Of a stretch of DNA of 64,000 nt, positions 542 to 59,879 are shown in pieces. The notes beneath the pieces are model-generated. The model did no database searches, was not told the origin of the DNA, and saw only the letters and a list, made by a program, of their open reading frames with translations. The DNA comes from Lytechinus pictus (Eukaryota), in the NCBI RefSeq assembly GCF_037042905.1, contig NC_087245.1:33172001-33236000 (forward strand). The letters are read 5' to 3'. The position numbers and the translations under genes are program-made. The number at the start of each line of letters is the position of its first letter. The stretch's first letter is position 1.

Positions 542-1247
542 TTGCCAAGTGAAGACCTCTGTCTCCTGTTATCATAGATGGTCCTGTATCCTGCACCACC
601 ATTAGGAAGAGAGTCATCAACAGGCTCCTTAGCAGCCTTACGATGTCTATCGCTGAATGTCGGGTACTGCACCGGTGGTTTAGGCTGGTTGAGCAGGCGC
701 TCGTTTAGGGTTGCCGATGGCTGCTCTGGTGACACCGGTGCTTGCTCTGATGGTACGTCTTGTTGAACCTGCTGTTGGGTCTGCTGCAGGATTGGTGGTT
801 CTTGGTGCTGCTGAAATGGCTGCTGCTGCGGTTGCTGCTGCTGAAGGGTCTGTGATACAGGCACACTCTCTGTCTGGGTGATCTCCCGCACCTCCACCCT
901 CTGGTGCATAATGGAAGGTTCCTGACCGGGGCCAGTCATCACCCCCCTCTGTGGAGTGCTCTGGACCGTTCCATACGACATCGGGGGTGAGATCTGCTGA
1001 ACAGTGGAGTAAGAAGATGGTGCTGAGGCGGGCGGGGCGGTGACATAAGACACAGGTGATGATGGTGAGTTTTGGACAACACCGTGAGAGGCTTGAGGGG
1101 CAGAGGTTTTCACAATACCAAAGGTAGGTGATGGAGATCTGGCCTTGACTGAACCATATGTTGGAGGGGGTGCCACGGTCCCTTGGTGAGGCTGTGATGC
1201 TGGAGCCTGGTACTGTTGACTGGGAACCGGAGAATGAACAGGTGCAG
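542..1247 (-). CDS. TNS: tensin S/P/Q-rich linker exon, last exon in the window
   Basis: CAG/GTAAGT boundaries, 706 nt, phase 1 to 2. Confidence 0.85.
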
Positions 1248-4200
1248 CTGGTAGAGATGAAAAAATAAATCTCTATATTTATTCATATTCAAAATCATTG
1301 CTTCCCTAGCTGTAATGCTGCCCAAGGTGTGGCTAATGAACCTATATTGTATGTGCGCAGGACTGAATCTGATGACCGTGGTAAAGTCCATCTGTAATTA
1401 CTTTATGTAAATTCACAAAAATTAACATCTCTATTACTGATGGCACCTGACAAATCATTGATAAAAACATTTTCACAAAATCTTTCTAAGAATCTATTTG
1501 TTACATGAACTAAATTTAATGAAGCCAAGAAGAAGTACGGTAAGAGAAATAAATGGTTACTCATCTTACAGCAATATTTCCATATTCCCAATGCTATGTT
1601 ACCTTATTTAGTATATGTGACACACCAGTGTTTAAATCCCTGTACACTAAATACTTGAATCTTGTATTTGAAAGAGAACATCTTGATAGGACGCTGAGTT
1701 TCAACCAAATGTAATGAAAACTTCCTTAACAATTGCTATAAAGTCAGTGTCACACGATGATCCCAATATCAAAGTTAAGATTGAAATAAAAATAAACCTT
1801 AACTAAACCCTAAGCCAAGCTGAATTTCCATTGTAACCTGAAACAGACCCAACCAGTATAATGAGTAAGATTCACATCTTTTACATACCTTGCTGCCATG
1901 CATCTTGACCCGGGTATTGCTCCTTCCTATCTATGATGACCTGAGCCTCAACAGGAACCACCTGGATAGGTCCAAGCTCCACCGGATGGAGCCGCACCTC
2001 TGTGATAGGTGGCTCCATGGCCCTGGAGCGAGGTGGCTGCTCCTGGTACTGTACCACACTGGGTTGGGTTGGGGTGGTTGCCTGGGGGAGTGGCGCTGAT
2101 GGTGGGGGAGCAGCGTTGACTTCCCGTACATAGCGAGGTGTGAATCTGGCTTCAACAACCCTGTCAGATAATGCAGGAGGAAAGAAATTGAAAGAAATAT
2201 GAATGAAGAAATGAGGATACAAAAAATAAAAAGATTTGTTTGCCTTTATTCAGATTTTTGAAAATACATTGATCTTTTCTTGATTTCCTTAAAGAATGGA
2301 TACCGTCAGGAAACAAATGCGTATATCTTTGTCTTTTAAAGATGTAAAATAAGGTACAAAGCTAAAATGGTCAAGAAAATTCAATGATTTGACTTTTGAA
2401 TTACCATTCAAGGATAGGGTTTTATATTATATTCTTGAAAATTGATGAACATTCATTTAATTGTGGCAGCGGTGGGATCATTCCCCATGCCAATGGCAAA
2501 CTTATGTTATCGACGGCAAGTCCATGTTATCTTTTTATTTCTCCATTTACTGAATCAATATACTTTTAACGAGTATTGAGCTTAATATCACCAAATAGAT
2601 AAACCATGCTTCATACTTTAGATGACAATTTTCAAAATGAAGAAAAATTATTTCTAAGTAGCAACAGCTCATATAATGCAGATATGAACATTAGTAAATG
2701 ATTGAAATTCAATATGCATCTCAATGCTTTCAAATCTCCAAATAAAGATGTAACATTATTCCTCAGTTTAATCTTATCTCAAAAGAGAAGATAATATGAA
2801 GCAGATCATGCATATCAACTGTTGAAAATCACAAAAGAACATGAAAAACTCTGAGATTCAAATGACTATCGTAAGCGATGCAAGCAACTGCAGTTCCCAG
2901 AATAAAGCAAAGTAACTTTGCATTTCAAAAAATCCAAACAGTTATAGACATCTAGCATGAAAATTATTAGCTAAATATAGATCTGCATAATCTAACAAAT
3001 TTGGGTTATGATCATAGTAATTTATTTGAAATCTAGGGTGTTTTAATTTCATTGACATGTTATGTTTACTAAATAATCTCAGCATATTGGTTATCGAAAG
3101 AAATTAATAAAAATTACCAAAAAACAAACAAACAGAACAATGCTAACATGGCAAATTCTCGAGACAAGAAAAATATGTAAGATCACCGCAGAACAGCAAT
3201 TTAACATGTTAGTGTTGATTCTTCAACAAAATAAAACCGACCACTACATTTATATGATTGTGATTAATCCAAAGACAACAAATAAACTGGAAACCCATTC
3301 TTTAGTCAAACATCGATACAAACACTAATTGAAAGAGCACACAAATATGAGATAAACATGATTTATAGAGCAACGATTGATGTTTCCTTGAAAGAGGCAA
3401 ACATATCACATCTGAAGCCTTGATGTCCAAAAATCAACTACAAAGAATCCCAGACTCTTCTGGATAAATAAAAAAAAAATGTTCTCCTTGAAATAAATTA
3501 TTGCATGGTATTTTTATTCTTCCACTTTGTTTATCTGGAGGTAAGTTTGAGCATTTCAACATTATTTTCTACATTATGTATAATAAGCTAACTCGATTTG
3601 ATATGCTTTTCATTCAGTAGTTAGTCATAATGAAATCTGCCTCTGTAGATGAGCCATCATAGCAGAGCAATCAAGGTGGGTGGGGAGAGGTTAGATGAGG
3701 GCTGCAAGGGAATGGGGCAAGGTGGTTGAAGGAGAGAAAGGTAAAAATGTATTGGGGGCAAGAGAAGGGGACGACGGGAGCAAGGTGCAAGGCAAGGGGC
3801 AGGAGACGGGAAGGGGGGGGGGCATTTGTATCAAATGGATACAAAGAGGGGCAAATTTGCTTGAGACAGACAGCAAAAGATATACAGAACATCACAGTGT
3901 GACTTGCCCCTTCCCTCTAAAAAAAAAAAATGAAATGATAACTAAAGAATAGTTTTAGCAAGTTCCGAATAGCCACATTAAATTGATAGATTTGCGATTG
4001 GGTTGAATACAAAATAAAATTTCCATTTGACAGAAGAAAGGAAAATAACCAGTGTCCAGAATACATTTTTCTTTAGTCTTCATTGTATTGGAGAACTAAC
4101 AGGGAAGGCAGGAGAGGAAGGGAGAGAAGGTGATATGAAGGAGGAAGAATACAGGGAATAAATTAAAAATGGGTAAACTCAGCCAGGATGAAAAAGTAAA

Positions 4201-13200: not shown

Positions 13201-16200
13201 AAAATTTATAAGACAGAAAGAGACAAATGAGAACAAGGATATACTATATTAAAGTGACACGAATGGTGAGCAGAATGGTTAACAAACCTTCCTTGGAAGT
13301 CCTCCGGGGTTCTGTAGCCAAACCTCTGCACCGGGGTCGACTAGGTTGCGCCTGCGAGGGGGGCGGTAGTACTGCTGGATACCGGTATCAGAATCATAAC
13401 CTGACTGAGAGTTGGTGCGGCGTGGTGGCCTGGACTGGGTTGCTGGCGGGGTCCTATCCACAAAATCTAATCAAACAAGTAAAAGAGAGTTAGACTAGAT
13501 TCAAAATCAAGACATGACAAAAAAGAAGAAAAATGTGGGTAAGTTTAAATTCAAAGTTTTCTTTTTTGGTAAAGCATATGCCCATCTTCCTTCATAAGGA
13601 TTAATAAACACATTCAACAGGTAAAAGAAAGGGAAATATCTAATTGTATTGCTTTACAATAATGGCTTTGAAATTCCAATTATAATGAAATGCATCATAT
13701 TTGACAACAAAGACAGGGTTGTACAGTATAACATCATACTTTATATCCATACCACATTTCAATATTTGTGTTCTTCAAAGATTCGGGACAAAATGAAAGA
13801 GAAAGGATAGAAAATAACAGATATTATACAATAAATGGATATGACAAATGAGGAAAAATGAAAATGATTGAAAAATTAATATGGATTTCAAAAAGAGATA
13901 AATCAGAAAAATATTACTCACTTGGCGATCTGTCGGCCACCACCCCTCTTGGTATGTTGTCTACCTCTGTTGGTTCATCAATGTGCAGATCAACTTCATC
14001 AAAGTTCTTTTTAGGTGTGGACGTAGCCTGAGGTCTGTGATTGGTCAATGTTTGAGATGTGTTATGGTACCCACCACTGGATTGGTGGGTTTGAAATTGA
14101 GTTCGGTTAATCCTGTCATCTGATTGGTTGTTGTTGTTGAGTTGATGGTGAGAAAGGATGGCACGGTTGTCTAGTGAGGCATGCGTGTTATGGTTAGCAT
14201 CAATCGATGATGAATTGTAAGGGGCACTGAGTTTCTGGATTTCATTGCTCCAGTGAGAGAGCATCTTGACAGCATCATCAAGATTACTGAAGGGATCCTC
14301 ATTAGTAGAGTTGTTATTATTAGTCTCAAGGAGTTCATCAAGGCCAGAGTTGCTCACACTACGGGTAAAGACTCGACCTTCTTTGTTGTAGGAAGGGGTG
14401 CTTCCATGCATGGAGGAGAGAGAGGGATGGGTTGTGTTAAAGGTCACACTTTGTGATGGGTTAGTCGCCTCCACATGCAGGGTTTGTTTGTTTAACGTCC
14501 GCACATTTCGCTCAGTCCTAGCCGGCTGCTGATTATGAAGAAGATGGTCGGGCAATCGCGACTCTGGAAGATGAAAATGACGACCCACCGGACTCTTTTC
14601 GCCATCCTTCGGTTGCATAGGACTGGTTGGAAAGAACCTCTGTGATGCAGAAGGGCCTGGCAAAGGTTGACCAGTCTGTTGCATAGAATTGCTGTTATAG
14701 CTATACCCGTAATTATTCCAGTGCTCTATCTCTTCTCTCCTGTTAGGAACATTATTGGATACCATCTCACGTAAATTATGGTCCTGGTGCTTGCGGGACA
14801 GAGTCCCACCATCTTGCGGAGTCCTACTACGAGTGTTACCCTTAGGGGGTAAGGTTGCCAAATTTTCAAACTGTGGCCTCCCTGGACGCTGTGGGATAGG
14901 CTGGACTACATTTGTTTTACTTTGATTTGTGCCACTACCCCTCGGATTCTTGCTACTGGTTATTATCTCATCCCGCAAATCAAACTGAACCTTATTACCA
15001 CCTTTCTGGCTGCTATCTAATTTACTTTCCCTAGTCCTATCATAAGAGTGTTCCTTTGAACCCACACATGTGCCTTGATTACCATTATTAGTGCCTCTTC
15101 GCAGCTCCCTAATCCTGTTCATAACCCAATCATAAGAGGGGAGTGTTGGAGGTACAGAGGATGCCCTTGGTGGCTGTTCCACCTCAGGCGACAGGTCCCT
15201 TTGGTAGCTACCTATGGGCAATCTGGACCCTTGCTTCTCGCTTTGGTCATGAAAACTGACTTTTGGTCGCTCGTTTGGAATAGGAATGGGTCTTGAAAGA
15301 CTTGGTACACTTGATGGAGAGAGGAGGAAGTCTGCTTTTCTGAATGCAGACTTCAGCAAATGTTGGGAAGGGGTGAGATCTGACTGACCGGTTCTTTCTC
15401 TACTGCTTGTATCGGGAGTATGGGAGACGGACTCATATTCCCGATCCCCGGAGGTTATCTGGGAAGGATGCACAGAGGAACCCTTTTGGGGAGTAGACTG
15501 GTATTGTGAGTTACTACTGGAAGACTGTTGTGTGTGGACGTACTGATGTGATTGGTTATTATGAGAATGATACCCATTACCAGGATGATTCCCGCTACCA
15601 TGGTTACGCTGTGATTGGTAATAAGGACTATTGTCATTTCTATAGTGATGAGGATAGTGAGAAGTAGGTATAGATGAAGTAGAAGAGGAGGAAGAAGAGG
15701 AGTGAATGGAAGTATCATAGAGATGCTCTCCCATGGATGTTGAGACTGACAGAGGAACAAAGGCAGATGTTGGAGAGCGTAAATTTCCTGAGGATATGGC
15801 TGCGGGCTGCCCACCATGCTGTTTCTGAAGGCTTGAGGAAGTCCTTGTAGCATCGCCTGGCCTTGGAAGAAAGCTATCAACCTCTTCATAAGGATTAACA
15901 CGAATATTGACTTTAGGCTGATGCTGCGGTGACGATGATTGCTCTATCGCTTTACTACCAGAGTTACTCTTCCACTGGGTAATGGGTATAGCTGGATAAT
16001 GATAGGACCCATCCTTGTTTAGAACAGCTTCAACTTGGACAGTCTTCTTCCTCCGCTCTGTGGTGTTTCTAATGGTGGTCTCAGAGCCATCATTTCCCTT
16101 GTACCTTGTCACATCGATACTAGTTTCATGTGGGCTCACTCCTGAGAGACCAGATGTCAAGGTCTGGTAAGAAGAGGACTTGTAACCAGAATCAACCGAA

Positions 16201-19200
16201 GGTGTCAAGGAGTTGGAATCGGACACCCTGGATGATACCTTCAACGGTACACTACTGCTGCATGCCGTTTTGGTATTCATAGCAAAGCTGGCATGTCCAG
16301 AAGAAGTGTTTGTAAATGGCACGCTACCAGCTTGAGAGGCTAGCTCTGTCCGTGACTGGTACCGCCTCTGTTCCTGTGCGGAATTGCTATGGCTATTGTG
16401 GTAGTGAAGGTTTGGTAGATGCATGAATATATCGTAGGCAGACACACGCCATGATAAACACCAACAAACAGGAATAAATATGGAGGAAGGCAGAGATTAA
16501 AAGGAAGATGTTAGTGGATCATACCATGTTAATAATAACTTTAATAAAAACCAGGTGAATTCACAAATTGGTTAATAGAGTTGCTACTTGCGACTGTCAT
16601 GAAATTACCCCCAAATCACCTCCTTTATATGATTTTAAACAGCTTTGATGTTTAATGCTTTGTAAATCACTATATATTTTGCTCTATTTTTTGTCATTAT
16701 TCCCCTGCAAATGTAGGCTTATCCACTTTCCCCACAGATAGTCATTTCCAAAGGCATAAGATGTAGTATACATGATAAAATAATACAAATATGACACAGT
16801 CGCAAGTAGCATCTAATTAGAAAATTCCTGAACATGCTATGAAATGTTTAATACCAATACGTATATAACTTATCATGCAATGGGTCACATCAAACACATA
16901 CCTGGGGCCTGTTTTAAAAAGAGCTGCGATTTATCAACCGCAACTATGGACGGCCAGTAACTTCAACATCTAAAATGCATGTGTGTTCAAAATATTTTCT
17001 AGATATGGTGTATATTCATACATTCATCGTTCTCTTGAAAATTCAGTTTGATTCTTTTTATTTACTAAGGAGATGTGCAAATTTCCTGTAGAAAAAAATA
17101 ATGGGAGGTATGGATTTCCAGACAGTTGAGATTGATTGGATCAATTGCAACTCTTTGTAAGACAGGGCCCAGATGTTGAAACACGGATGATCTTTAGTAA
17201 ACTCATGTAGAAACGTAATATATGAATGGCTCACCAGAATGAGAAAGAAAAAATATATGACTTAAATATGATTTAAAGAACAAATTAGGAGTTTAGTTTA
17301 ATAATTCAAATAATTCTTGATTAAAAGAAAATTAAATGGATTTAAATGAATGATTAATCACATTTTTCCAATGAGAGTATTTCAGATATCAATTTAGAAA
17401 CCCCTCCAACCAGAAAAAATAATAATAGTGAATAGAAAATAATTGCTGGTTTTGCGTTGGTGTCTCTGTTCATTTACATAAAAGATCTTGTAGTTGGTGC
17501 CAAAATGCAATGCAAACACAATCAATGTTCACCCCATGATATTCAAAATAATGCACCATGATATCATTAATGAAACCATGAAAAAAAACCATGAATTTAA
17601 GAAGATAGGAAAATTTGCATCACACATCAAAAGGGTCAGTAGTACTCCTCTTTTCCTTCACCAGCAAACCAACTTGAATAAAAAATATCACAAAGGCATC
17701 ATAACCAGCGAAGAGTCGTTCCATCTAAAAGGTCAAGTAAGGAAACCATGTGGGCCCTGGCCAAGTCTACAGGGATTAAAAATCTCTTTGCAACAAATGG
17801 GGTAAATACAAGGTCCAGAAGGGGGAAAAGCATAATATCAAAATATCAAGTTTACTAAAGAATATACAATTCTTAAATGTTCATGAGTTTGTTGGCAAAT
17901 TTTACCAATTAAAAAAAAAGAGAAATAAAAATAAGTGATGGGGGGGTCATGGTTTTATTAACACACCCATATTTAGCAGCCAATAAGGCTGAATTGCATT
18001 TGATCTGCATGAATAATCAGACATCACATATATCTTGGCCTTGAGCCTTTTCTTATAAAAATTAAAATAAAGTCACAATAAATCGTAATTTTCAAGAATG
18101 AAAATACATCACCATGCACTTGGTAGTGACTTACCCATCGTTCCTCAGTTGAGCATTGGTAAGAATGGGAGGAACTGGATCATAAGGCGTAGAAGGTGTA
18201 GCAGGGACCTTTGGTGACTGATCATCAGCAGGTCTCTGGTACACAGGGTCACGAACCCTATCATGGGTCAGATCAGATAGCTGCCTGTTGAGTGGTCTCT
18301 CATGGGGCTCCCATTCTCGGGTCGTGCTGGTGGTGACAGTCCGCTGAACGTAGCTCTGGGCTGGCTTGGCAGTGTTCATTTGCCCAAGCTCGCTAATGGA
18401 TCGCTCTAAGTCTTTTGAAATAGAAAGAGGGGGAGGTGACACACCCCGTCTCATAGACACGCCACCATCCTGAGGACCAGTCATCAGTAGGTGATCAGGT
18501 GCTGGATACATTGCATTCTGCACTGGTGTTACTTCTGTGGCCACCACTGGAGCCTGGTTGATAGGAGTGATGTTGTTACCTTGACGATCCTGCAACTTCT
18601 GCTGTTGTGCAAGCCAAGACGGTGGCTCTTCCCTCTTGGCGGACAGTGGTGGGGACACCATAAGGGGTGCCGGCTCGACGTCACCCTCAAAACGAACACG
18701 TAACTTTGGAGATGCGTTGACAGGCGTAACTCTGATGGGTTCTCCTGGGGATTCTCTCACAATGGGTCTTCCGTTTTCCCTCTCCCGCTTTTCACGAAGT
18801 TTATCCTGCTGCCTCCTGAGCCAGCCAAGCCCATCATCATCACCATTATCAGTAGGACTGACAGGGCTAACCTGTGCAGGGGATGGAGGGGATGGCTGGT
18901 ACTGTTCGGGCGCATTAGGGCCTTTCCTTAGGAGTTGGAACCTATCCTCTCTTGCTTTCAAAGGACGCGGCTCATACTTGGTATGCACAGGAGATGTTGG
19001 GCCATTTTCTAGTCTACTTGCATAAGGAGTCCTTTCTGTCACCCTACTAAGAGAGTTGGGTACGATAGGGGTCTCCACCGGCCCATTCATCTGTGCTACA
19101 TACGGTTGGGCTGGACTAGCATTGTAACCTATCTGGTTATATGTCATAGGTGTCGGTCCATTGGGAACATTGATTTGTCCTGGGTTGAGGTTCACCTGAC

Positions 19201-21498
19201 GTGGGTTTAAATTCACTTGTCCATTCTGAACCATAGGGCCACTTTGAACCACCGGTCCATTCTGGCTCACAGGACCATTCTGCATTGTCCGATGGTTTGA
19301 TCCCTTTGGCGTGATCTCATACGTGGGATTGTGCTGCTCCACAGAACGTGGCACACTAATGCCTCCATTCATCATTGGTGGTGCGTATTGCTCCTTATTC
19401 GTCACAAGAACAGGTGTGATCATTTCCTGTTGGACCACCTCCTGCTGGATCCTCTCCTGTTGTGGACCACTCTGGTTGGTGTTGGGGTTCTGCTGAAGCT
19501 TCTGCTGCATAGCGTCTGTGATCTCTGCATATGGGTTCTCAGCTTCACTGGACTCCTTCCTAGATGCTGGTTTCTTGGAGGGCGAAGAGTTCTCCTGGCC
19601 AGCAGCTTCTTCTTTGATATCCTCCTGGACTGGTGGTGGCGGTTTGGGTTTGGATTGGGAAACCGGAGCATGGCGGAGATCCTCACTCACACTAACAATG
19701 CGCCTTGTGTGGACAGGCTCATGATGGAGAACCTGGGATTAAACAATTTAGAATAAAGAAGCTGTATTTGAAGATGATGATGGTTATGATATCAAGAACA
19801 AAAGAAAGAGCACATGTATAAGTCTATTAGAACCATCATCATGATCACAATCATCATCATCACTTAATAGTAAATTCAAGAGCTTTTCTTCCAAAGCATA
19901 TAAGGATACACAATCAAAGATTATTAAAGGGAAATATGTGACGAAATACACCATCTGATACAGTTGACATCCTTAAGATACAAAATACTCTTTAGACCAA
20001 AGGCAGAATATTGAAAGTCATTATAGGCCTTTGTGACGTTATAGGGCCTATCCAGACCATAATTCAAAATTTACAACAGAACTTCCTCAAAATCTAAAGA
20101 ACCGTTTCTTTTAACCTCCATTTAAATCCCCCCCTTTGATATTTTATAGGGACCACCATCAAAGTACCCAGATTCAAGTAACTGAACAGACCTTGTTATC
20201 AGGGGATGGTGGTGCCTTCCACTGAATGTTGTTGTTCACCATAATTCCTCCATCTGTATCCTCCCCAGTGATGCCTTTGAGCAGTTCATCCAGGGCCATT
20301 CTCTCCCGGTAGTCCATGTTTCTCTTGCCTCCATCCTTGGAGGTGTGGACCTGAGGGGCTCTGTCAGGGGAGAGGACATAAGGCAAGGGGGCATTGGTAT
20401 CCCCATTGGTCAGTCTGGGGATGATCGGAGACTGCTCCGGTGAGGGTGTTTTCTTGACCTGGGCGTAGAGGCTTCCGTCAGGAGCCGAGGAGTGAGGGAT
20501 GTCCAGGATCATGTTGTTGTTGTTGTTACCTGATGTTTCATTGAGATCAGGGCCTCCATCTAGGGTAGAAAGGAACGATAAAACTTACATGTTGATCCCT
20601 TTAAAGAAACCTTTACAAAAATTATTGGCCATAATCCTCAGTGAAGCCATCAGGTATAAATATTTTTAACACATTGATTATAGGATTCAGACTTGCTCTA
20701 TCAACACCTGAATAGGAGCTACAGAATAGAAACCTCTACCTGATTTAAAATACTCTTCTTGATTTGTTGGTCTTATTTATGATTCTGGCAAAATAAATTT
20801 GATAAAATGCACACCAAGACCTTATAGAATGAAAATATAGGAAAATGAAAGACAATGGGCTTCTACCTTCAGGTCCTTCGATGATGTCATTGAAGTGTTC
20901 ATACGAATCCCATCTGATCAATGGATCATCGATGTGTTCAGACGGGAAGCTAGCTCCTGAGACATAGTCACTCCCATGGAGGGCATCGGGAGTAGAAGAG
21001 AAGATCAGTTCTACCTTGGTGAACTCGGGGAATCTAGCATCTATGAAACAAACAAACAAAAAATATCTTGAGTTCTAGTCTTCTTAAGCATTTACAAATT
21101 ACACAGTTCTGTCAGGGAAAGCACACACTCTTTTGACTTTGTTTTTGTATTTTATGCAAGGAAGTTTCGAAATGGAGACGTCTCTTTCTTTCTCTCATAA
21201 AAACAGAGGAGTTGCTCATGTATTCTTTCTCCTGTTCCATGATTACGCCAATATGGTATCATAATATGATAATGATGGTGATAAAATTCCACTGCTGATT
21301 GTTGTTATCACTATAACTATGATCATAATATTTTCTATCAGTAAATATTCTCATCATCCTCCTCCTCACAATTATCATCATCATTATCATCATAAACATC
21401 AACATCATCATCACCTTCACAATCATCATCATCATCACTACCATCATCATCATGATCATCATCATGATCATCATCATCATGATCACCATCACCATCAC

Positions 21499-29200: not shown

Positions 29201-32200
29201 TGACAGTGGCAAGCTCAGTAAGATAAACACTAGAAGATGTACGGTATGTTAAAGTAGAGGTTCACCCTGATATCAAGATTGTTCATAAATAGGCTGAGAG
29301 GTTGTTACTTTCCTCAAAGTGGAGTTTGCAATACAATTTCTCTTACTACATAAAGAACAAAGATAACCTAATAATTGCATGACCGGCTGCAGTCTTTTCT
29401 AAAATTCCAATCCGGATATCATTATTAAACAAAAGCCCCCTTCATGAATCACACTTTCTTTAGACTGTATATAACATAAACTTGCCTCTAATCAAAGCAA
29501 ATATTTCTGGCCACCCTTCCTTGAAATTCCATTATCCATATAATAAAATAATGTAAAAATTAAAACATCAACAACACAACATGCCAGTTGCAAACATGGA
29601 ATTAATTGAATAACTAAGATGTTTTCTCAAATTTCTCTTAAAATGGAGGAGGAAGTGACTGTTAGGAAAGCCTATCAGAGGGCAAGAGGGGTGTAAAATA
29701 TCACCCATCACGTTCCCCTCTACCAAACTTTTTCTGATTAATGGTAGACAGATGAAAGAGATGAGGTTATCTTTACTATGAGGCTTGAGGAAAGTGATTT
29801 GATCTAAAGTCCACATATGGCTTAATTGAATATACTCAGGAATTCAATTACATCTTTCGGGAGATATATCAATAAAAAACAATACACTTGATTTTGATGA
29901 CATTTTTTAGACTAAATCTAACAGTGCACAAAATGCATATAGTGTACTAGTAACAGCTGACAAGAAGAGTAAAAAAATGGAGAAATGGAGAAAGGAAACA
30001 AATCAAATGAGGAAATATCATGTAGAAAGATTGTGAAAATACAGTAAGACCTCTCCACAGAGGTACATGTGTAGCTGCTTATTGTTGATCAGGATAGTTA
30101 AACAAAGTAACTAGGAAAAGAGGAAAATGTATTGGTCCTACCATCCTAATAGTACATGTAATTGACAGAAAACTTAACAAAACAAATCTTAAACAATTTT
30201 TTTTTAAAATATAAATCTAAAGCATTTTCAGAGAACTGGATAAAATCTTGCTCTTAGTAGGCTATATTCCCGTCAGACCCTAGCATATTTGCTATCATTT
30301 TCACATGTTTGTAAAGATCCTCAAACTGTAAAACACAGAGAGATACAAAGTAGATATTAATGATGGAACTATCTTCCAAGATTTATGGCTAACTAAACGA
30401 GACAATGACGAGTCCACAAGAATGGCTACGTGCAAACTGCACATACACAAACGTCAGTTGGAAATTACAATTTATGGCCAATTTGCTGCTGTGGACCATA
30501 AAAAAACCCTCAGTAGATAACAACATATTCTTACTGTAAGTGTTTCAGGATCGCATAAAATGAAAAAAGGGTATTCCATTTCAGTTAATTGAGTAGAAAT
30601 AATGTTATTGAAACCTTATCCCAATGCTTCATAAAGAACTTGACACTTGATTTAAAGTGAGAGTACACACTATTAAAAACTAAGGTGTTAAAAAGGACAC
30701 CAGTTGGTGTCTCTTGAGGACCACACCCTAAGGTATTAAAAATACACCATAGACATTGAACCGCCAAGGAGTGTAAAAGAAACAACCATATGTGTTTTAT
30801 AGGTGTTGAACACCAAAACTTAAAACCAGAGTGAAATGACTGATGTGGTTCTCCATGTATACCAATCAACACTGCAGTTTTTGCTGTTTGGGAATGGTTT
30901 GGAGGGGCACTAAAAGGTTTGATGATCTCCTTATGAAATTTTGTATTACCCACATTTTTTAATTTTATTCCCTTTTGTATATTTTTTAGTTTCACTTTAT
31001 TTTCATGAATGACCCCAACCCCCATTCATTGACAGCCAAGGAATTGACTTCTTGTTTTGGAGAGTGTGTGTGTGTGTGTGGGGGGGGGGGGGGTGGAATA
31101 ACATAAATATTTCCTCTTTTCTGGTAATTTCAGGAATAGGGGGAATATTTATGAAGGCAAGGGCACTAGAGTTTACACCAGTTGTGTAAATGTCTCCCTC
31201 GGTTTGTCAGAGTCATAAATTTATAACGGTGGCTAACTCTGGAGGTATCACAGGCCTAAATCATTCCCCATAGACTCGTGTGTTAAATTGGCACTTTAAA
31301 AAATTCATAAAAAATAAGGGTGGAATTCGGGGGTCGAATGTTTACTACCAGTGGATAGGATATATATCTGGCAATCCATATCTGACCAGAAAAGGGTCCC
31401 TCGACCGGCTCATTTTAAAAATAAATTGGCGTGTTTGAAGACACCGTCGGGGGGAGCAGATTCATCACCTCAAACAGCAAAATAGCCCTAATCCTTCCGC
31501 CAGTCAAAATATAGTCCAAAATTGGTGATATTTCTTCCCAATTTGGGAAAAGGAAGTTCAATAATTACCAAAAATAGAATCAGTGTTAGATGGACAATCA
31601 TATGCATACACTTTGTTAATCAGCCATATCAAAATAAAAAAAATAGCAATGGGTTGGGTCGAATGAATATCTATGACCTGCCTCTAGTGATTAGGCCCGT
31701 GTAACCTGTATTGTATGGCACATGAAGGTTTCTTTTTAATTTACCTTCCTGGCTTTTCTTTAACATCTGTACACTCACTTTATCACAAAGAAATGCATGA
31801 AATATACAGATGTGTTATGTAATGACCAATTTTAATGTTACTCCTAATGTCTAGTGCCCTATGGATTTACACACATCCTACCTGCCTATATGTAGCTCAA
31901 CAATGGATGCAATGTAGGGCCCAAATCCTATAATGCAAATTGTAGATATGAATAGTGTGCATATCTGGATTCAAGATTTGCCCACAATATAAATACCAGA
32001 TTCACATGAGTTAAATTAGATAACAATAAAAAGAAATGAGAATCAACATACAAGCATACTATACATTCACATCTTCCTATGACAAGGGCCCAAGCCAAGG
32101 GATGTAAGAGAGAGAGACAGGGAGAGAGGGGGGTTAGATGGCTTGTATTCTAAATGGATGGGGGCTAGTCTGGCTAGAAGTCAGTAAAAGTTGAACAAGA

Positions 32201-35200
32201 TAGCAGTAGCACTCATTCTCAGCCCCCCCCCCAAACATACTAACTATGCTTTTCTCTACCCCCCCCTCCCTATTGAATCCACCACTCTTCAGCCAAATTC
32301 TAAAGTTTTCTCTTCTCCTTCCCTTCCCCATGAACCAATTTCACAAGTGCAATTGATGCAAGGCCTATCTTGTGATGGGTGCTATACACGATTTACATCA
32401 GCGCTCGTCGGTATACGAAAACACACGACAACATGAATCACAGAGACAAACACACAGCCTACACGGCCTAGCCTAGGTACACAAACACAGAGTTACCAAT
32501 CACAATTTGTTACCTGTTATACCCCTATGTAGCCTTGTATATAGCCATGAAGTTCAGTTTTTGGACCTCTTGATGATTGAAACATGTATACTAGTGAAAG
32601 CAATCTGCTACTGAAGAGTTTGGGCAGGTATTTCATCCACTAGGGAATTCTCCTTGTAATAGGCTATGGTCAAGGTGTACAGGTATCACAGGCCTAAATC
32701 ATTCCCCATAGACTCGTGTGTTAAATTGGCACTTTAAAAAATTCATAAAAAATAAGGGTGGAATTCGGGGGTCGAATGTTTACTACCAGTGGATAGGATA
32801 TATATCTGGCAATCCATATCTGACCAGAAAAGGGTCCCTCGACCGGCTCATTTTAAAAATAAATTGGCGTGTTTGAAGACACCGTCGGGGGGAGCAGATT
32901 CATCACCTCAAACAGCAAAATAGCCCTAATCCTTCCGCCAGTCAAAATATAGTCCAAAATTGGTGATATTTCTTCCCAATTTGGGAAAAGGAAGTTCAAT
33001 AATTACCAAAAATAGAATCAGTGTTAGATGGACAATCATATGCATACACTTTGTTAATCAGCCATATCAAAATAAAAAAAATAGCAATGGGTTGGGTCGA
33101 ATGAATATCTATGACCTGCCTCTAGTGATTAGGCCCGTGTAACCTGTATTGTATGGCACATGAAGGTTTCTTTTTAATTTACCTTCCTGGCTTTTCTTTA
33201 ACATCTGTACACTCACTTTATCACAAAGAAATGCATGAAATATACAGATGTGTTATGTAATGACCAATTTTAATGTTACTCCTAATGTCTAGTGCCCTAT
33301 GGATTTACACACATCCTACCTGCCTATATGTAGCTCAACAATGGATGCAATGTAGGGCCCAAATCCTATAATGCAAATTGTAGATATGAATAGTGTGCAT
33401 ATCTGGATTCAAGATTTGCCCACAATATAAATACCAGATTCACATGAGTTAAATTAGATAACAATAAAAAGAAATGAGAATCAACATACAAGCATACTAT
33501 ACATTCACATCTTCCTATGACAAGGGCCCAAGCCAAGGGATGTAAGAGAGAGAGACAGGGAGAGAGGGGGGTTAGATGGCTTGTATTCTAAATGGATGGG
33601 GGCTAGTCTGGCTAGAAGTCAGTAAAAGTTGAACAAGATAGCAGTAGCACTCATTCTCAGCCCCCCCCCCAAACATACTAACTATGCTTTTCTCTACCCC
33701 CCCCTCCCTATTGAATCCACCACTCTTCAGCCAAATTCTAAAGTTTTCTCTTCTCCTTCCCTTCCCCATGAACCAATTTCACAAGTGCAATTGATGCAAG
33801 GCCTATCTTGTGATGGGTGCTATACACGATTTACATCAGCGCTCGTCGGTATACGAAAACACACGACAACATGAATCACAGAGACAAACACACAGCCTAC
33901 ACGGCCTAGCCTAGGTACACAAACACAGAGTTACCAATCACAATTTGTTACCTGTTATACCCCTATGTAGCCTTGTATATAGCCATGAAGTTCAGTTTTT
34001 GGACCTCTTGATGATTGAAACATGTATACTAGTGAAAGCAATCTGCTACTGAAGAGTTTGGGCAGGTATTTCATCCACTAGGGAATTCTCCTTGTAATAG
34101 GCTATGGTCAAGGTGTACAGGTATCACAGGCCTAAATCATTCCCCATAGACTCGTGTGTTAAATTGGCACTTTAAAAAATTCATAAAAAATAAGGGTGGA
34201 ATTCGGGGGTCGAATGTTTACTACCAGTGGATAGGATATATATCTGGCAATCCATATCTGACCAGAAAAGGGTCCCTCGACCGGCTCATTTTAAAAATAA
34301 ATTGGCGTGTTTGAAGACACCGTCGGGGGGAGCAGATTCATCACCTCAAACAGCAAAATAGCCCTAATCCTTCCGCCAGTCAAAATATAGTCCAAAATTG
34401 GTGATATTTCTTCCCAATTTGGGAAAAGGAAGTTCAATAATTACCAAAAATAGAATCAGTGTTAGATGGACAATCATATGCATACACTTTGTTAATCAGC
34501 CATATCAAAATAAAAAAAATAGCAATGGGTTGGGTCGAATGAATATCTATGACCTGCCTCTAGTGATTAGGCCCGTGTAACCTGGAGATAGTATGTACAT
34601 GTATCCTCTAATTCTGTGAAAAATTTCAATAGCAATTACTCAGCAATGCCTACTGTTATAATACCATAGGAACATGAAATTCATCAAAAGTTCTTCTTCC
34701 AATAAAAAAACCTCCAGATCTCAAGCTGCCACAAATCATATACAAAAATATGTTAATGCTTGATATTTTTTTAACAGACATTATACCATACTTTTTATTG
34801 GTTTGTCAATAGATACAGTTAATACATTTTTCTTTAAGTGTATTATAATGGATGGGGAAAACCAGACCTCTGGCTAAAACACCATGCTTATTTTGCTCAC
34901 TTCTAATCTTAGCAATTAGATTTTCTTCCAAATTCATCTGGCATAAATATATTTCTTTTTACTCAACATAAAAACACTTGGGTGGTCATTTTATTGGATT
35001 TTGTTCAAACTAATTTTCAGATTCTTAGGTACCACAACTGGCATTAATCTATAAACTTGACCACATTGCATATCCACTGATATGAATATAGCTGACAAAG
35101 AATTACATATATTGTAAATATATTTTGGTGAAAAGCAATAACTGGAAATGCATCTTTCACTTTCAGTTAAAGGAGAATGAAACCTTTAGAACAAGGTAGC

Positions 35201-38200
35201 TTGTGTGAAAACAGAAAAATCAAATAAACAGATCAACAAAAGTTTGAGAAAAATTGGACAAATAATGAGGTTATGAGCATTTGAATATTGTGATCACTAA
35301 TGCTATGTAGATCCTCACATTGGCAATGCGACAAAGATGTGTGATGTCACTTGTGAACAACTCTCCCAATTACTTTAGTAGGCCTATATATTTCACTTAA
35401 ATTGCCTCTTTTATCTCATCAGTCAGTAGATCATGTTCTTTCTATAGGCATGATAGGAGGACATGTGATACAGATTATTAAAGAATACATCATGGATAAA
35501 GAGTTTGTGTCACCATAAGAAAAAGCAAAAAGAGACATTTTGGGGGCATTTTATAGTCCATCAAAGGGAAAGTTGTTCACATGTGACATCACACATCCTT
35601 GTCACATTGCCAATGGGAGGATCTCCATAGCATTAGTGATTGCAATATTCAAATGCTCATAACTTTCTCATTGTTTGTCCGATTTTTCTCAAACTTTCGT
35701 TGATCTGTTTCTTAGATTTTTCTGTTTCGACACAAGCCTACTTATTCCAAAGATTTCATTCCCCTTTAAGGTTTCCTCACAAAATAAACTCTTTTTTCTT
35801 CATTTGGTTTTTCAGTTTTAAAAAGTTTAAATTGTCTGCTTTGGACAAGGCTCTAAAATATGTTAGAAATATTGTGGAAATAACCTCACTTCCATGCAAC
35901 GCTAAATTTCCCATTCTTGACAAAAGTGTTCAACTTAAGCCAGGTGGAATAGACTATTTATATCTGGGTCTTGAGACATAAAACATACATAAATATACAA
36001 AATCTTAGGTGTAGTTGCAAGGTGTTACCAGCTCCTTTGTTATTATAGTCTATAGGCCTCCCATACATTTATAGAGCCAAACTCTGTTGTGAACATTAAT
36101 CATTAACATTGATGTTAGAGGGCCCTTTCCACCTGACAAAAGTTAGTCTACAAAGACCAAACTCCAGATTCAACATGTGAATGAGAAGGGCAAAGTTTCT
36201 TGTTGCCTGGAAGACAGGCTAAAGTGGCATGATTACAAAAAAACAATGGAGATAGCATGCCTGATTCCATTCACAACTCAAAACAACAGAGAAGTATTCT
36301 GAAAGTATTCATTTTGGCTAATTTATAATATCTACACAACATTTGTTCCATAATGTATTTTCCAGTTGTCTTCCACATATATGAAACATTGGAAACATAG
36401 TCATGATCAAACAAATTCTGGTGTGTATTTGTAAGAATAACATTTTTTAATAAAAAAAAACACAAATCAAATATCTTCAAAATGATTCCCCTGTTTGTTA
36501 TTATCTCACTGCAAAATGAAATGGCTTTGACCAGTTAATCTAATGAAGATGGGAATATTAAAATCATGATTATGAAGATGGAGCCTAAGATGACGATGGA
36601 TTTGTGGGAGGGGTGCATGATACAACAGACCTACCCTGGGGGACCTTGGAGATTTAGGAGACCCGTGCTTAAACTTCTCATTGGTCTGTGAGGATTTTCA
36701 AAAGAACTGATTAACATATATCCAAATTAATAATAATAAAAATAATCATAATATAATAACACACATCATCCCCTTAAATTGCTTAATACCACAGACACTA
36801 TTGCAAGAATTTAAACCTCCAATTAATTTCAAGCACATTTTGGGTCTTAAAATCAATGATAAGTTTGCAATTAATTGCAAATTTGCACTGTACTTGATTG
36901 TTGGTCTGGTTCTTGTAACACGCAGTGAAAATAAAAGTATTCATATATCAATATATCATGGAGGATCCGTGGTGTAGTGGTTCTGACTCTCGCCTTGTAA
37001 ACAGAGGGTCATGTGTTCGAATCCCACCACGGTCTGGCACCCTTTGGCAAGGTGTTAATCCACACTTCGCCACTCTCGACCCAGGTGCTAAATGGGTACC
37101 CGGGTGGATGTGAAAGTCATTGTGGCTTGTCCAGTACTGTGTGCGCCTCACTGGCGACTGACTGGAATACTCCCCAGGGAGTGGAGGATGTGCACACATT
37201 GTGTGCGGGAATGACTGATTGAATCTGATGACTGGGGTAATAATATATCTGTAAAGCGCTTAGACACGTCGCTCCAATGTATTAAGCGCTATATAAAAGC
37301 AGACTATTAATTAATTGTAAATCTGCATTAATATTTGCAATTGATTTCAAATGTTTTCTTGCACCACCCCCTAAGACTGCAATTGAGCTTCACGCTGTAT
37401 AATACTTTTGAATGTGAAGCCCAATGAACGGTAGTTTGAATTTTCTATTACCCAAATGGCATATATTTCTCAAGAGATCTCAGCTCGCAACTGCCAATTT
37501 CAATAAATGGTCCATAACATGGACATCTGCTCTTGGACGAGGACAGATTTAATAAAATCTGACCACACAAGATATTATCCTACATAAGAAGCAGAAATCA
37601 TTATCGTAGTACGTGTAGTTCGGTAGAATTTGATAGTTCGAGGAATAGGTAGATGTCAATGAAACCTTGAACAATTAAAGTAAGGTTTGAATATAAGAAT
37701 AGGTACATGAAACTGAAGTTTTTTGTAGCATCAGAAAAAGGAATTAATTGTTGAACATGTAATTTAATTACAAAGAGTTCTTCTCTCTTTGGCATGTATT
37801 CTGCCACCTTCCATTCTAATTTCTCCAGTTCTTAAAATATCACAAATTTTCAATTTCCTCCTTGATTTTTACATCATGATATGTTTCTTCTTAATCCATC
37901 TGTTTTGGCTACCATCAGAAACATTTAAAGAAATGTGCTTTTATTTTCATTAAAAATTCAAAACAAAGATTCATTGAACATCACTTTATAGGGATACAAG
38001 TATGAATTTGTTTGATTATTTATGATAACTTTCTCTTTTTTGCATACAATTTTCCTTCTATTCTTTTTTTATTATGTTCCATTTAAAAATAAATGTATAT
38101 TTTACAGAAGTTCCCCGAATGAAGCAAACTAAAATTCATGAAGAACATTCTCTTAAGGCCTATTTCATCCTATGCTGGTTTCTCAAACTAATTGACAACC

Positions 38201-56043: not shown

Positions 56044-59000
56044 GTTGTAGAGGCGCCTCACAGGCAGTCCCTTTTTGAGCTCCAGAATTCTTCTTATTTT
56101 GTCACATTATTATTGTTTGAATGCTATATTTACTATATCAGTTTGTAATATATATCGTCAGGATCACCCTAGACCAGTTTGGATCTGTTTGATGGCCTAC
56201 TTTGGAAAATCTGCACGGATCTAGTTTTTGCAGTTTGTCTTCATTGCTGAACCACCATTACATGCATGTTCTCCATGTATCTTGATTTTGGCTTTCAAGT
56301 TCACTCATCCACACCTTCCATTGTCTTCATCAATAGCTTCTGGACACAACAATGGAGTTGGTCAACTTGATAGCAATTGTCCTCATTGTGTCTACAATGG
56401 GAAGGAATGAAGTGGAGCCCTGTATTGGCCACCATGTATTCAAGTGCTGTTTTAAAGAACAGCTGAAACCCAGTAAGTTCCTTGGAACGCGGGTAGCATA
56501 TTATTCTAATGCCACGTCAACCTTCCAGCTTCAACTCTTGTTATCAGGAGATATTAGCTTGAACCCTGGACCAAGGAACTTTGATACCACCACGACCACC
56601 GATGAGTGTTACAATCCTGGTGATACAGCGAGAACAGAATGTAAGGTAAATCGACATGTATATGATAGAAATAAGTTACTGGAGATCAATCAGAATAGAC
56701 AGTTTCTAACAAGGTGCAGACTTCAGGATGGCGTTTGGAAGAATATATGTTCTCTCGGGATTGCTAAAAGGCAAAGGTTTCACAGAGGTAAAAGAGCAGG
56801 GAGAAGGAAGCAGAGGCATATCCCAGTATTGACAACTCCTCGTTTGCCTGTCAACAATACCTCCAGGTGTGGCATCAATTACAACAATCTGAGGAGGATA
56901 CCCAGACACGATCCTAACATTCAGTCTGGTACAAAAGTACATTTATGGAATGCACGTTCTCTCAGAAATAAGGCTTTAGTCACCTATGACTACATTCTTG
57001 AACATGATTTAGATATATTTGTCATCACAGAATCATGGCTGAAAGATGACGATCAAGTTATCAAGGGTGAATGTACCCCACCTGGATATACGCTCATCAA
57101 CACTCCACGTAAAATGGGAAGTGGGGGAGGCATAACAGTTATCTTCAAATCTGAGCTCAAATTACAAACCCGCACTTTGGTGAATGAGTTTAGGACATTT
57201 GAGTGTGTCCATGTTGTGAACAAGTCATCGTCATCTTCATCACTATTGAGTCTGGTTGCTGTTTACCGACCGCCACCATCACCCACAAATGGACTGTCCT
57301 TGGTGGATTTCATGAGTGAATTTGATACCTTTTTGACTGATATGTATGTAATCCCAGGCAAACTAATTTTGCTTGGAGATTTCAACTTCCACATAGACAA
57401 TCTTACTAAGACAGATGTGAATGGTTTTCTCCAGGCTATATCAGCGGCCGGCTTACATCAGCATGTTACTGGTCTAACCCATTCGCAGGGACACACACTG
57501 GATCTTGTTTTCACCAGAGAATCTGAGTCAATAATCAAGAGATGCAGCGTGCAAGATATGCTGATGTCTGACCATTCTGTAGTGAGGTTGGAGCTGACAA
57601 TCCCTGTCAGTCAGCAAGAGATGATCACAAGAACCTCTCGTAATTATAAAGCAATTGATAGGGACAGATTCAGAGATTCCCTTCAAACGATGACTCAGAA
57701 GTTTTCACAACATAAGGATACTGATCATAGTTTTGACTGGTACAATGATACGCTGCGTGGTCTTATTGATTTCTTGGCTCCATCGACAGAAAGGACCTGT
57801 GCGGTACGTAGAAGAATGCCTTGGTACACCGAGGAGATCCATCTTTCTCGACGGAAAAGGTGCAGAGCTGAAAGGAAGTGGCAGAAAAGCAAGTCTGCAA
57901 TAGATCATGATAGCTATCTAATTGCAAAGCGTGAAACATCAAATCTGATCTGCAGGACAAAGATGTCCTTCTTTCGACATGCACTTTCTTCTTCAGATAC
58001 CAAGGAAGTCTACAGGACATTGGACTATTTACTGAACAGAAAGAATATGTGTCTTCCCTTCCATGACTGTGCGGAGACCTTGTGTAACCAGTTTTCTACA
58101 TTCTTTACCAACAAGATTGAAAAGATTCATGAAAGTCTTGGGGATATCACTTCATGTTCCGGGACCTCGATTGAATCTAGACCGTTTTCATCATCTCCTA
58201 TGGTCTGTTTTGATCTGACAACTGAAGATGAGATATTGAAAATCATCAAGGGTTCTGCAAGTAAGTCATGCAGCCTGGATCCCATTCCTACATGGTTCTT
58301 GAAGGAAAACATCCAAGATCTTCTTCCCATCATAACCAAGATAGTCAACTCCTCGCTCTCATCAGGAAACTTTCCAGCGGCAGCGAGAACTGCAGTTATA
58401 CGACCACTTCTTAAAAAGCCATCACTCGACAGGATCTGTCTTTCCAATTATAGACCTGTGTCCAATTTGAGTTTTATTGGAAAGATCATTGAAAAGGTTG
58501 TATGTCGAAGACTTATGGATCACATGGCTGATAATGACCTGTTTGAGCAACACCAATCGGCATACAGACCACACCACAGTACGGAAACAGCTCTAGTGAA
58601 GGTGAAAAATGATATAATGTTTGCCTTAGATAAAGGTCATGTGGCACTTTTGTTGTCACTTGATCTATCAGCAGCATTCGATACCATCGACAGGCAAATT
58701 TTGATATCTCGTATGTCAAACAGGTTAGGAGTCAACGGTATTGCACTCAAGTGGTTCAAATCCTACCTTGCAGACTGGACTACCAAAGTAGAAATAGGTG
58801 GGAAGTCATCTAAGTGTAGTGCGAGTTCTATAGGCTTGCCGCAGGGGTCTGTATTTGGGCCGATCGGCTACTGTATCTACACCTTACCTGTAGGAGACAT
58901 CGCTCGCCATCATAATGTCTTCTACCATACTTATGCTGATGACATACAGCTTTACGTAACATTTGATCCTAAGGTTTGCAGTGTAGATGAAGCGAAGAAG

Positions 59001-59879
59001 ACTCTTTGTGCTTGTGTCACAGACATCTGTAGTTGGATGACTCTTAACAGACTTAAACTCAATGAAGGAAAGACTGAATTTCTTGTCATAGGTTCAAGTC
59101 ATAACCTTCGTTCCCTTGGTGATGTTAGCCTTGGTATTGGTTCTACTACTATTGTATCATCCAAATCTGTTAGAAACCTTGGTGCTTACTTTGATTGTAA
59201 TATGAACATGTTAGAACAAGTTAATCAATTATGTAAATCTGTCAGATTCCATCTAAGAAACATATCGCAGATAAGAAAGTACATAACTGAAGAAACCTGC
59301 CACAGTGCTGTTCGTTGTCATATTTTGTCCAGATTAGATTACTGTAACAGCCTATTAACATCTGTTCCCCAAGTGTATTTGAAGCGCCTACAAAGTTTAC
59401 AAAACTGGGCAGCCCGTATTATCTTTAAGGTGGACCGACGTCATGATCCTGGCCCTTTACTTAAATCTCTTCATTGGCTCCCTGTAAAGAAGAGAATTGT
59501 CTTTAAATTACTTCTTTTTGTCTTCAAAGCCTTTAATAACCAGATGCCAAAATATATCAAAGATAGCCTTGCTTCCCATAGACCAACTCGCCCTAATCTC
59601 CGTTCATCTAAAGACCCATATTTGCTTGCCATACCCAAAACTCGTACAAAAACATTTAGTGTTACTGCTTCTAAAGAATGGAACAACATCCCCACTTTCA
59701 TTAAATCATCAAACTCTTCAGATCAATTTAAGAAACTTCTAAAAACATACCTCTTTTCCGATTAATTTCCTTTGCGTGTATTTGTATTGTAATTATTATG
59801 TACTTTTTTTTTAAATCGTTTGTAAACGCTGTGATATAGTTAACTATGGAGAGCGTACTAAATGCTAGTTATTATTATT
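56044..59879 (+). mobile_element. L2/CR1-group LINE with ~300-bp 5' region and short 3' UTR ending in (ATT)n
   Basis: Intact ORF; 3' end TGTAAACGCT...AGCGTACTAAATGCTAGTTATTATTATT. The 5' boundary is approximate. Confidence 0.85.
56352..59765 (+). CDS. LINE ORF: APE endonuclease + reverse transcriptase (L2/CR1-group non-LTR retrotransposon), 1137 aa, uninterrupted
   Basis: APE motifs WNARSL, ITESWL, VYRPP, LGDFN, GHTLDLV, SDH. RT motifs NYRPVSNLSFIGK, QSAYR..HSTETAL, LDLSAAFDTID, GLPQGSVFGP, YADDIQLY, LKLNEGKTE. C-terminal SRLDYCNS and LHWLPV are typical of the L2 group. Confidence 0.96.
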   Translation: MELVNLIAIVLIVSTMGRNEVEPCIGHHVFKCCFKEQLKPSKFLGTRVAYYSNATSTFQLQLLLSGDISLNPGPRNFDTTTTTDECYNPGDTARTECKVNRHVYDRNKLLEINQNRQFLTRCRLQDGVWKNICSLGIAKRQRFHRGKRAGRRKQRHIPVLTTPRLPVNNTSRCGINYNNLRRIPRHDPNIQSGTKVHLWNARSLRNKALVTYDYILEHDLDIFVITESWLKDDDQVIKGECTPPGYTLINTPRKMGSGGGITVIFKSELKLQTRTLVNEFRTFECVHVVNKSSSSSSLLSLVAVYRPPPSPTNGLSLVDFMSEFDTFLTDMYVIPGKLILLGDFNFHIDNLTKTDVNGFLQAISAAGLHQHVTGLTHSQGHTLDLVFTRESESIIKRCSVQDMLMSDHSVVRLELTIPVSQQEMITRTSRNYKAIDRDRFRDSLQTMTQKFSQHKDTDHSFDWYNDTLRGLIDFLAPSTERTCAVRRRMPWYTEEIHLSRRKRCRAERKWQKSKSAIDHDSYLIAKRETSNLICRTKMSFFRHALSSSDTKEVYRTLDYLLNRKNMCLPFHDCAETLCNQFSTFFTNKIEKIHESLGDITSCSGTSIESRPFSSSPMVCFDLTTEDEILKIIKGSASKSCSLDPIPTWFLKENIQDLLPIITKIVNSSLSSGNFPAAARTAVIRPLLKKPSLDRICLSNYRPVSNLSFIGKIIEKVVCRRLMDHMADNDLFEQHQSAYRPHHSTETALVKVKNDIMFALDKGHVALLLSLDLSAAFDTIDRQILISRMSNRLGVNGIALKWFKSYLADWTTKVEIGGKSSKCSASSIGLPQGSVFGPIGYCIYTLPVGDIARHHNVFYHTYADDIQLYVTFDPKVCSVDEAKKTLCACVTDICSWMTLNRLKLNEGKTEFLVIGSSHNLRSLGDVSLGIGSTTIVSSKSVRNLGAYFDCNMNMLEQVNQLCKSVRFHLRNISQIRKYITEETCHSAVRCHILSRLDYCNSLLTSVPQVYLKRLQSLQNWAARIIFKVDRRHDPGPLLKSLHWLPVKKRIVFKLLLFVFKAFNNQMPKYIKDSLASHRPTRPNLRSSKDPYLLAIPKTRTKTFSVTASKEWNNIPTFIKSSNSSDQFKKLLKTYLFSD

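What the first reader, a model, noticed from the sequence alone, without database searches (positions are those of the whole stretch)
31240..34586. Composite X-Y-X-Y-X element bracketed by a single TGGA duplication: possible eukaryotic composite transposon or atypical TRIM-like array
Seen: three apparently identical 463-bp X units with GG..CC termini and imperfect ~20-bp TIRs alternate with two 975-bp Y spacers. Each Y starts TGTA and ends TACA. The repeat boundaries coincide exactly with the TIR ends. Only the outermost flanks match (TGGA|GG...CC|TGGA, extendable to CTGGAG); the individual X copies lack their own matching TSDs. Inference: X-Y-X moved as one unit, like a bacterial composite transposon or an LTR/TRIM element, then expanded by unequal recombination between X copies. 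I found no canonical PBS/PPT and no coding ORF, so it fits no standard class cleanly.
Basis: partly seen in the sequence, partly recalled or inferred. Interest (0 to 1): 0.8.

Follow-up and report, generated by a model that had tools for sequence, protein, structure and literature searches.

The report
Gene-less KolobokP transposon dimer
This is a young, gene-less double copy of an already described animal jumping-DNA type (KolobokP), likely moved by an intact helper element in the same genome, and its end repeats appear to have been exchanged with that helper's.

Summary
It is not a new class. It is a non-autonomous KolobokP dimer, (LTDR-INT)2-LTDR, a structure described by Kojima and Bao 2022 (PMC9587614). 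X is the long terminal direct repeat (LTDR) and Y the gene-less interior (INT). In this genome 18 of 23 complete Y-bearing insertions carry their own exact 4-bp duplication, and solo X copies exist. X is homologous, by eye, to published KolobokP_LyPi LTDRs. An intact helper with a 95%-identical LTDR encodes a Kolobok-type transposase and a His-Me nuclease. One contig from a related organism spans an empty site. Two extras are not discussed in the parts of the paper I read. First, the LTDR and INT trees disagree (quartet sites 60:2 versus 27:4), suggesting LTDR exchange with the helper. Second, all 10 LTDR-LTDR junctions found have a 4-bp spacer equal to the INT's first bases. The scan has reported KolobokP before in other windows, including this genome.

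The parts
31240..31243 (+). left target-site duplication TGGA
   Evidence: 4-bp TSD family-wide
31244..31706 (+). LTDR 1 (X1), 463 bp, GG..CC ends, imperfect TIR 13/16; its left end is the insertion's left end
31707..32681 (+). non-coding interior INT 1 (Y1), 975 bp, TGTA..TACA; ends homologous to INT ends of autonomous KolobokP (60-66%) and of N2_LyPi-like copies (71-73%)
32682..33144 (+). shared middle LTDR (X2)
33145..34119 (+). non-coding interior INT 2 (Y2), identical to Y1
34120..34582 (+). LTDR 3 (X3); its right end is the insertion's right end
34583..34586 (+). right target-site duplication TGGA
   Evidence: empty site in a related organism

Best explanation
This is a recent insertion of a gene-less KolobokP DNA transposon in dimer form, (LTDR-INT)2-LTDR, likely cut and pasted in trans by the transposase of an intact KolobokP family in the same genome whose LTDR is 95% identical. 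Shown: the structure, a different 4-bp duplication at each locus, solo LTDRs, monomers and multimers, homology to published KolobokP LTDRs, and the helper's two genes. Inferred: the transposase pairs any LTDR left end with any downstream LTDR right end, so solo X, XYX and longer arrays can all move and leave one 4-bp duplication at the outer ends. The extra unit likely arose by unequal exchange or break repair between LTDRs, at this site or in the donor. A role of the His-Me nuclease in that step is the paper's untested proposal.
For: Architecture and sizes match the paper: LTDR about 450 bp, TIR up to about 20 bp, RR..YY ends, 4-bp TSD, and multimers sharing an LTDR. Table S1 lists KolobokP-N2_LyPi at 1904 bp with a 465-bp LTDR; the monomer here is 1901 bp. 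Six exact 15-19-bp words read from the published LyPi LTDRs are all in X, in the same order. 18 of 23 complete Y-bearing insertions have an exact 4-bp TSD, with 17 distinct sequences; 5 of 7 solo X at 97% identity or more have their own. Helper L147 (C17:13473963-13478874) has LTDRs 95.4-95.6% identical to X, a 696-aa frame matching PF20700 (E 3.9e-49) and an opposite-strand 146-aa frame matching PF05551 (E 2.5e-11). The latter matches the printed KolobokP_1_LyPi nuclease segment at 71 of 85 residues, counted by eye. One contig of run X1 joins window 31242 to 34593 over 8 letters, 7 expected for an empty site.
Against: 5 of 23 insertions lack an exact TSD: one is off by one base, one appears split by a later neighbour, two differ at one base (one of them reading TGTA on the right), and one has none. 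The L147 helper copy itself has no matching TSD. Y encodes nothing, so membership rests on LTDR/INT homology, not on an own transposase. Y's ends are only 60-66% like the helper's interior, so Y is not a simple recent deletion of that helper. The empty site rests on one contig in 1 of 4 runs, from an organism about 90% alike that reads TGGT instead of TGGA there. No INT-INT junction was found (0 matches for one exact pattern), although the paper reports them in other families. Mobilisation by L147 is untested.
Confidence: 0.95

Rival explanations
1. A tandem array of a TRIM or other non-autonomous LTR retroelement, with X as the LTR.
For: The LTR-internal-LTR layout, solo repeats and shared-repeat arrays look alike; the paper itself notes the resemblance.
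Against: X ends GG..CC with a 16-bp TIR, not TG..CA. The coding relative with the same terminal repeat matches only PF20700 and His-Me/HNH families in its two long frames, and no reverse transcriptase. X is homologous to KolobokP LTDRs.
Confidence: 0.01
2. An opportunistic composite: two independent X MITEs landed near each other and captured 975 bp of ordinary host DNA (or X is a CAGG..CCTG element with a TA duplication, as the inner junctions suggest).
For: Solo X copies transpose with their own TSD. The inner junctions read TA-CAGG..CCTG-TA.
Against: Outer junctions vary freely and show 4-bp, not TA, duplications. Y's two ends are homologous to the ends of autonomous interiors (E 8e-11 and 2e-6 against L147) and to other non-autonomous KolobokP interiors, so Y is element-derived.
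Confidence: 0.03
3. The element is real but the dimer at this locus is an assembly artefact (the true state is a monomer or a longer array).
For: The units are 100% identical over 1904 bp, and no reads of the same individual were available.
Against: Dimers and a tetramer with their own flanks and slight differences between units occur at C4, C13 and C21. All three X here share G at position 80, where five other copies have A.
Confidence: 0.07

Closest known systems
KolobokP-N2_LyPi (non-autonomous KolobokP, Lytechinus pictus; Kojima & Bao 2022, PMC9587614 Table S1)
   Same: Monomer 1904 vs 1901 bp, LTDR 465 vs 463 bp, 4-bp TSD, about 16-bp TIR, non-coding interior of about 975 bp; LTDR and INT ends homologous. 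Copies with N1/N2_LyPi-type ends occur in this genome (340 LTDR-INT junction matches).
   Different: A sister family, not the same one: against one in-genome N2-like unit the LTDR is 79% and the whole INT 63% identical. Three exact terminal motifs of this family were not found in the paper's four supplements. It pairs with a different helper.
Autonomous KolobokP (KolobokP-1_LyPi type; in this genome L147 'A' and L153 'B')
   Same: LTDR 95% identical to A; INT ends homologous; same multimer habit.
   Different: No transposase or nuclease; INT ends only 60-66% like A or B.
Bacterial composite transposons and IS30-type tandem dimers (PMC9333248, abstract read)
   Same: Two terminal modules, each with its own inverted repeats; end-to-end junctions with a short spacer; insertion next to the element's own ends.
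   Different: Unrelated transposase family; in KolobokP the enzyme lies in the interior, not in the terminal modules. The analogy is untested.
TRIM tandem arrays and LTR swapping in soybean retrotransposons (Du et al. 2010; title seen only in the reference list of PMC4079214)
   Same: Shared-repeat arrays; terminal repeats exchanged between autonomous and non-autonomous partners.
   Different: Those are retroelements; this is a DDD/E DNA transposon.

Membership tests
KolobokP | LTDR-INT-LTDR layout with long direct repeats of about 450 or 660 bp | tested here: met
   463-bp X around 975-bp Y; 18 XYX monomers elsewhere
KolobokP | each LTDR has short perfect or imperfect TIRs and 5'-RR..YY-3' ends | tested here: met
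   GG..CC, 13 of 16 bases
KolobokP | 3-5-bp TSD of variable sequence at the outer ends only | tested here: met
   18 of 23 exact 4-bp, 17 distinct
KolobokP | solo LTDRs and (LTDR-INT)n-LTDR multimers | tested here: met
   solos, dimers at C1, C4, C13, tetramer at C21, array of 13 X on C248
KolobokP | sequence homology to described KolobokP LTDR and INT | tested here: met
   by eye and by shared exact words against printed LyPi consensus; measured through in-genome N2-like copies, 79% and 63%; the published sequences were not aligned directly
KolobokP | family has an autonomous member with a Kolobok DDD/E transposase (C/DxxH, two zinc fingers) and an opposite-strand His-Me finger nuclease | tested here: met
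   L147: PF20700 and PF05551 hits; motifs D280, CCHC 326-347, D386, CSTH 412, C486-C501, E554 assigned by analogy
autonomous KolobokP | the copy itself encodes transposase and nuclease | tested here: not met
   longest ATG ORF 65 aa; no tblastn hit; so non-autonomous
KolobokP | LTDR-excision products (INT-INT junctions) | tested here: inconclusive
   0 matches to one exact pattern; joints going back from Y's end to Y's start appear in contigs of the related organism, not followed up
KolobokP | mobilisation by the helper's transposase; LTDR cleavage by the nuclease | not testable with these tools
   needs biochemistry or a cell assay
TRIM / LTR retrotransposon | TG..CA terminal repeats and an RT-coding partner | tested here: not met
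   GG..CC ends; the partner's two long frames match no RT family
TRIM / LTR retrotransposon | primer-binding site and polypurine tract | not tested
   no search against host tRNA 3' ends was run
Tc1/mariner MITE | TA target duplication | tested here: not met
   variable 4-bp TSDs at outer ends

The most novel reading that the evidence does not exclude
Gene-less KolobokP lineages outlive their helpers by exchanging LTDRs with whichever autonomous family is active, a DNA-transposon counterpart of LTR swapping. Here two sister non-coding interiors each carry the LTDR of a different helper. In addition, head-to-tail LTDR pairs separated by exactly the first 4 bases of the interior are the chromosomal footprint of IS30/IS3-like end-to-end joining, the circular or 'copy-out' step that the KolobokP paper left open.
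Probability: 0.5. Interest if true: 0.5.

Novelty: new member of a known kind. Interest (0 to 1): 0.25.

Why it matters
As a finding it is ordinary: one more non-autonomous family of a lineage with 228 described families. Its value is as material for an open question. KolobokP's mechanism (circle or not, role of the nuclease) is untested. This genome holds very young copies, an intact helper in long tandem arrays, LTDR-4bp-LTDR junctions and LTDR/interior discordance. Together these give specific substrates and predictions for testing end-to-end joining and LTDR exchange in a eukaryotic DDD/E transposon.

Tried and rejected
TA-duplication (Tc1/mariner-like) reading of the inner junctions: rejected, outer TSDs are variable 4-mers. 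6-bp CTGGAG duplication: rejected, it includes X's own end bases. C1:29303179/29306825 as a helper candidate: it is a partial plus a full solo LTDR with the same flank, and no long ORF. Eleven CTGA-flanked solo X rows share both flanks and so reflect one insertion amplified inside another repeat; they were not counted as independent, and four 'solo' rows are LTDRs of autonomous elements. A PDB sequence search with the nuclease gave nothing meaningful. Exact terminal motifs of X are not in the paper's supplements. INT-INT junction pattern: 0 matches. Runs X5, X6 and X9 do not bridge the insertion site, which says nothing either way. The trees used a too-distant outgroup (C_L149, about 41% in the LTDR) and are poorly supported; I rely on the unrooted quartets and trees. 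A Pfam scan of 54 window frames (53 of the 101 minus-strand frames listed, plus one plus-strand frame) did not identify the host gene. A look-up of earlier findings by X's sequence gave nothing.

Full report
Observation. Three 463-bp X units (31244-31706, 32682-33144, 34120-34582) and two 975-bp Y units (31707-32681, 33145-34119) are 100% identical. X begins GG and ends CC with an imperfect inverted repeat (13 of 16 bases). Y begins TGTA and ends TACA, and TGGA stands on both outer sides. Nothing else in the window matches X or Y. The longest ATG frame is 65 aa.

A genome-wide family. The window's genome (812 Mb, 368 contigs) holds many near-identical copies. The X and Y searches each scored only 40 candidates (of 2053 and 1063). 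Exact patterns give 48 matches for the left 20-mer and 199 for a right-end motif, of which 99 were not listed or examined. In the loci I fetched and stitched, 23 Y-bearing insertions have both outer X complete, and 18 of them have an exact 4-bp duplication with 17 distinct sequences (chance about 0.005 each). The five exceptions are: one off by one base (C21), one whose duplication appears split by a later neighbouring insertion (C14), two differing at one base (C13; C2, reading TGTA on the right) and one without a match (C15). Six rows with truncated ends and the C248 array were left out. Structures include solo X (5 of 7 at 97% identity or more have their own TSD), monomers, dimers (C1, C4, C13), a tetramer (C21) and a 13-X array running off contig C248.

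Empty site. Public runs hold only a related organism, about 90% alike in the flanks. One contig of run X1 continues from window 31242 directly to 34593 over 8 letters, where 7 are expected for an empty site, and its letters match the right flank. The duplicated word reads TGGT there. The other three runs do not bridge the site.

Identity. The layout recalled KolobokP. I read parts 1-4 of 6 of Kojima and Bao 2022 (PMC9587614), all of Table S1, part 1 of 7 of supplement 2 and passages of supplement 3. The paper defines an LTDR-INT-LTDR element with LTDRs of about 450 or 660 bp, short TIRs, RR..YY ends, 3-5-bp TSDs, solo LTDRs and (LTDR-INT)n-LTDR multimers. Table S1 lists the non-autonomous KolobokP-N2_LyPi at 1904 bp (LTDR 465, TSD 4, TIR 16). 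The printed LyPi LTDRs are plainly homologous to X by eye. Six exact words of 15-19 bases and four interior words read from them are present in X and Y. Copies with N1/N2_LyPi-type ends are abundant in this genome (340 junction matches). Against one such unit X is 79% and Y 63% identical, so the window's family is a sister family; three of its terminal motifs were not in the four supplements. The host is thus likely a sea urchin (inference). The term KolobokP is in 2 papers of the library, and Kolobok with LTDR in 1.

Helper. Family searches for PF05551 and PF20700 led to L147. It has LTDRs 95.4-95.6% identical to X and 462/463 identical to each other, a 696-aa frame on the + strand (PF20700, E 3.9e-49) and a 146-aa frame on the - strand (PF05551, E 2.5e-11). 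The long frame has the Kolobok signature as the paper describes it; residues were assigned by analogy, not by alignment: D280, a CCHC finger at 326-347, D386, CSTH at 412, a second Cys cluster at 486-501, and E554. The short frame equals the printed KolobokP_1_LyPi nuclease segment at 71 of 85 residues, counted by eye. A second autonomous family, B (L153), has an LTDR only 80% like X.

Mechanism. Shown: any outer left and outer right LTDR end delimit an insertion with one 4-bp duplication. Inferred: the L147-type transposase acts in trans, and unit number changes by exchange between LTDRs. All three X in the window share a private base (G80, against A in five other copies). That fits either expansion in place or transfer of a homogenised dimer.

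Extra 1, LTDR/interior discordance. X is 95% like helper A's LTDR but 79-81% like the LTDRs of B, the N2-like family and an older Y-family (L181). Y's ends are 90-91% like L181's, 71-73% like N2-like and only 60-66% like A's or B's. For the quartet window/N2-like/A/B, LTDR sites favour window+A by 60 to 2, and interior-end sites favour window+N2-like by 27 to 4 to 1. For window/L181/A/B the counts are 26:3:2 and 41:0:0. The three LTDR sites that side with L181 lie in the last 25 columns, a weak hint of a breakpoint near the right end. So LTDRs were exchanged between coding and non-coding lineages; the direction is not established. Caveats: one representative per family, short interior alignments, and different constraints on coding and non-coding interiors. 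The words 'swap' and 'chimeric' do not occur in the paper's main text, but its model of an LTDR-INT circle entering a solo LTDR (Fig. 5b legend) would allow this.

Extra 2, end-to-end junctions. A pattern allowing 0-6 spacer bases found 10 LTDR-LTDR junctions, all with exactly 4 bases (9 TGTA, 1 TTTA), at four loci. Seven lie in one C14 insertion, so they are not ten independent events. TGTA is the first four bases of the young interior and TTTA of the older one. This is what end-targeted joining would leave, as in IS30 tandem dimers (PMC9333248, abstract only), but insertion of a solo LTDR right beside another explains it equally well. The paper leaves a circular intermediate open. One such junction is visible in its Fig. 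S3 for Mercenaria, and 'LTDR-LTDR' is absent from the main text. Unread parts of the supplements may hold more.

Verdict. A new, non-autonomous member of a known lineage. Earlier scan notes report KolobokP in at least 8 genomes including this one; I did not check them and they are not evidence. Interest 0.25, for the two mechanistic leads.

Noticed in passing
G000 C8:21257288-21299717 (L145, L146) and contigs C109, C157, C174, C200, C214, C219, C273, C361: Satellite-like tandem array of the intact helper (about 4.46-kb unit): 9 nuclease hits on C8 between matching CGCA flanks, plus 74 hits with like spacing on eight unplaced contigs, 83 of the 106 hits. It may be one array of several hundred kb of coding transposon.
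   Followed up: partly
G000 C5:35.936-35.970 Mb (L141-L143): A second tandem array of an autonomous KolobokP-like element (4.35-kb unit, 723-aa and 143-aa frames) with no X match; further families at L148-L154.
   Followed up: partly
G000 C14:26728552-26744280 (L072, L082): One insertion between TGGT flanks that mixes XY units, six tandem X-TGTA units and a LINE-like insert (RT-like frames) inside one X.
   Followed up: partly
L063, L064, L065, L147 right ends: Four copies end in X followed by TGTA (the interior's first four bases) and then unrelated DNA, with no clean TSD; unexplained.
   Followed up: no
G000 C14:4302167-4306023 (L077): One monomer inserted head-to-head 3 bp from the left end of an older monomer, splitting its TSD; a hint of insertion next to the element's own ends.
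   Followed up: partly
G000 C1:20.300-20.336 Mb and C2:46.169-46.232 Mb: Long tandem arrays (about 1455-bp unit) of the N2_LyPi-like family; some spacings near 2450 bp on C2 could be INT-INT junctions.
   Followed up: no
window 35167-35769: A 603-bp foldback (MITE-like) element with long inverted arms and TTAA-like flanks, very high copy in the public runs and absent from the related organism's contig.
   Followed up: partly
window 56337-59765 (+): A 1142-aa open frame with endonuclease and reverse-transcriptase domains: a LINE ORF2.
   Followed up: partly
window 538-1272, 13914-16496, 18131-19738 (-): Long Pro/Gln/Ser-rich open frames, likely large exons of a host gene; no Pfam match. The insertion may lie in an intron or upstream of it.
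   Followed up: partly
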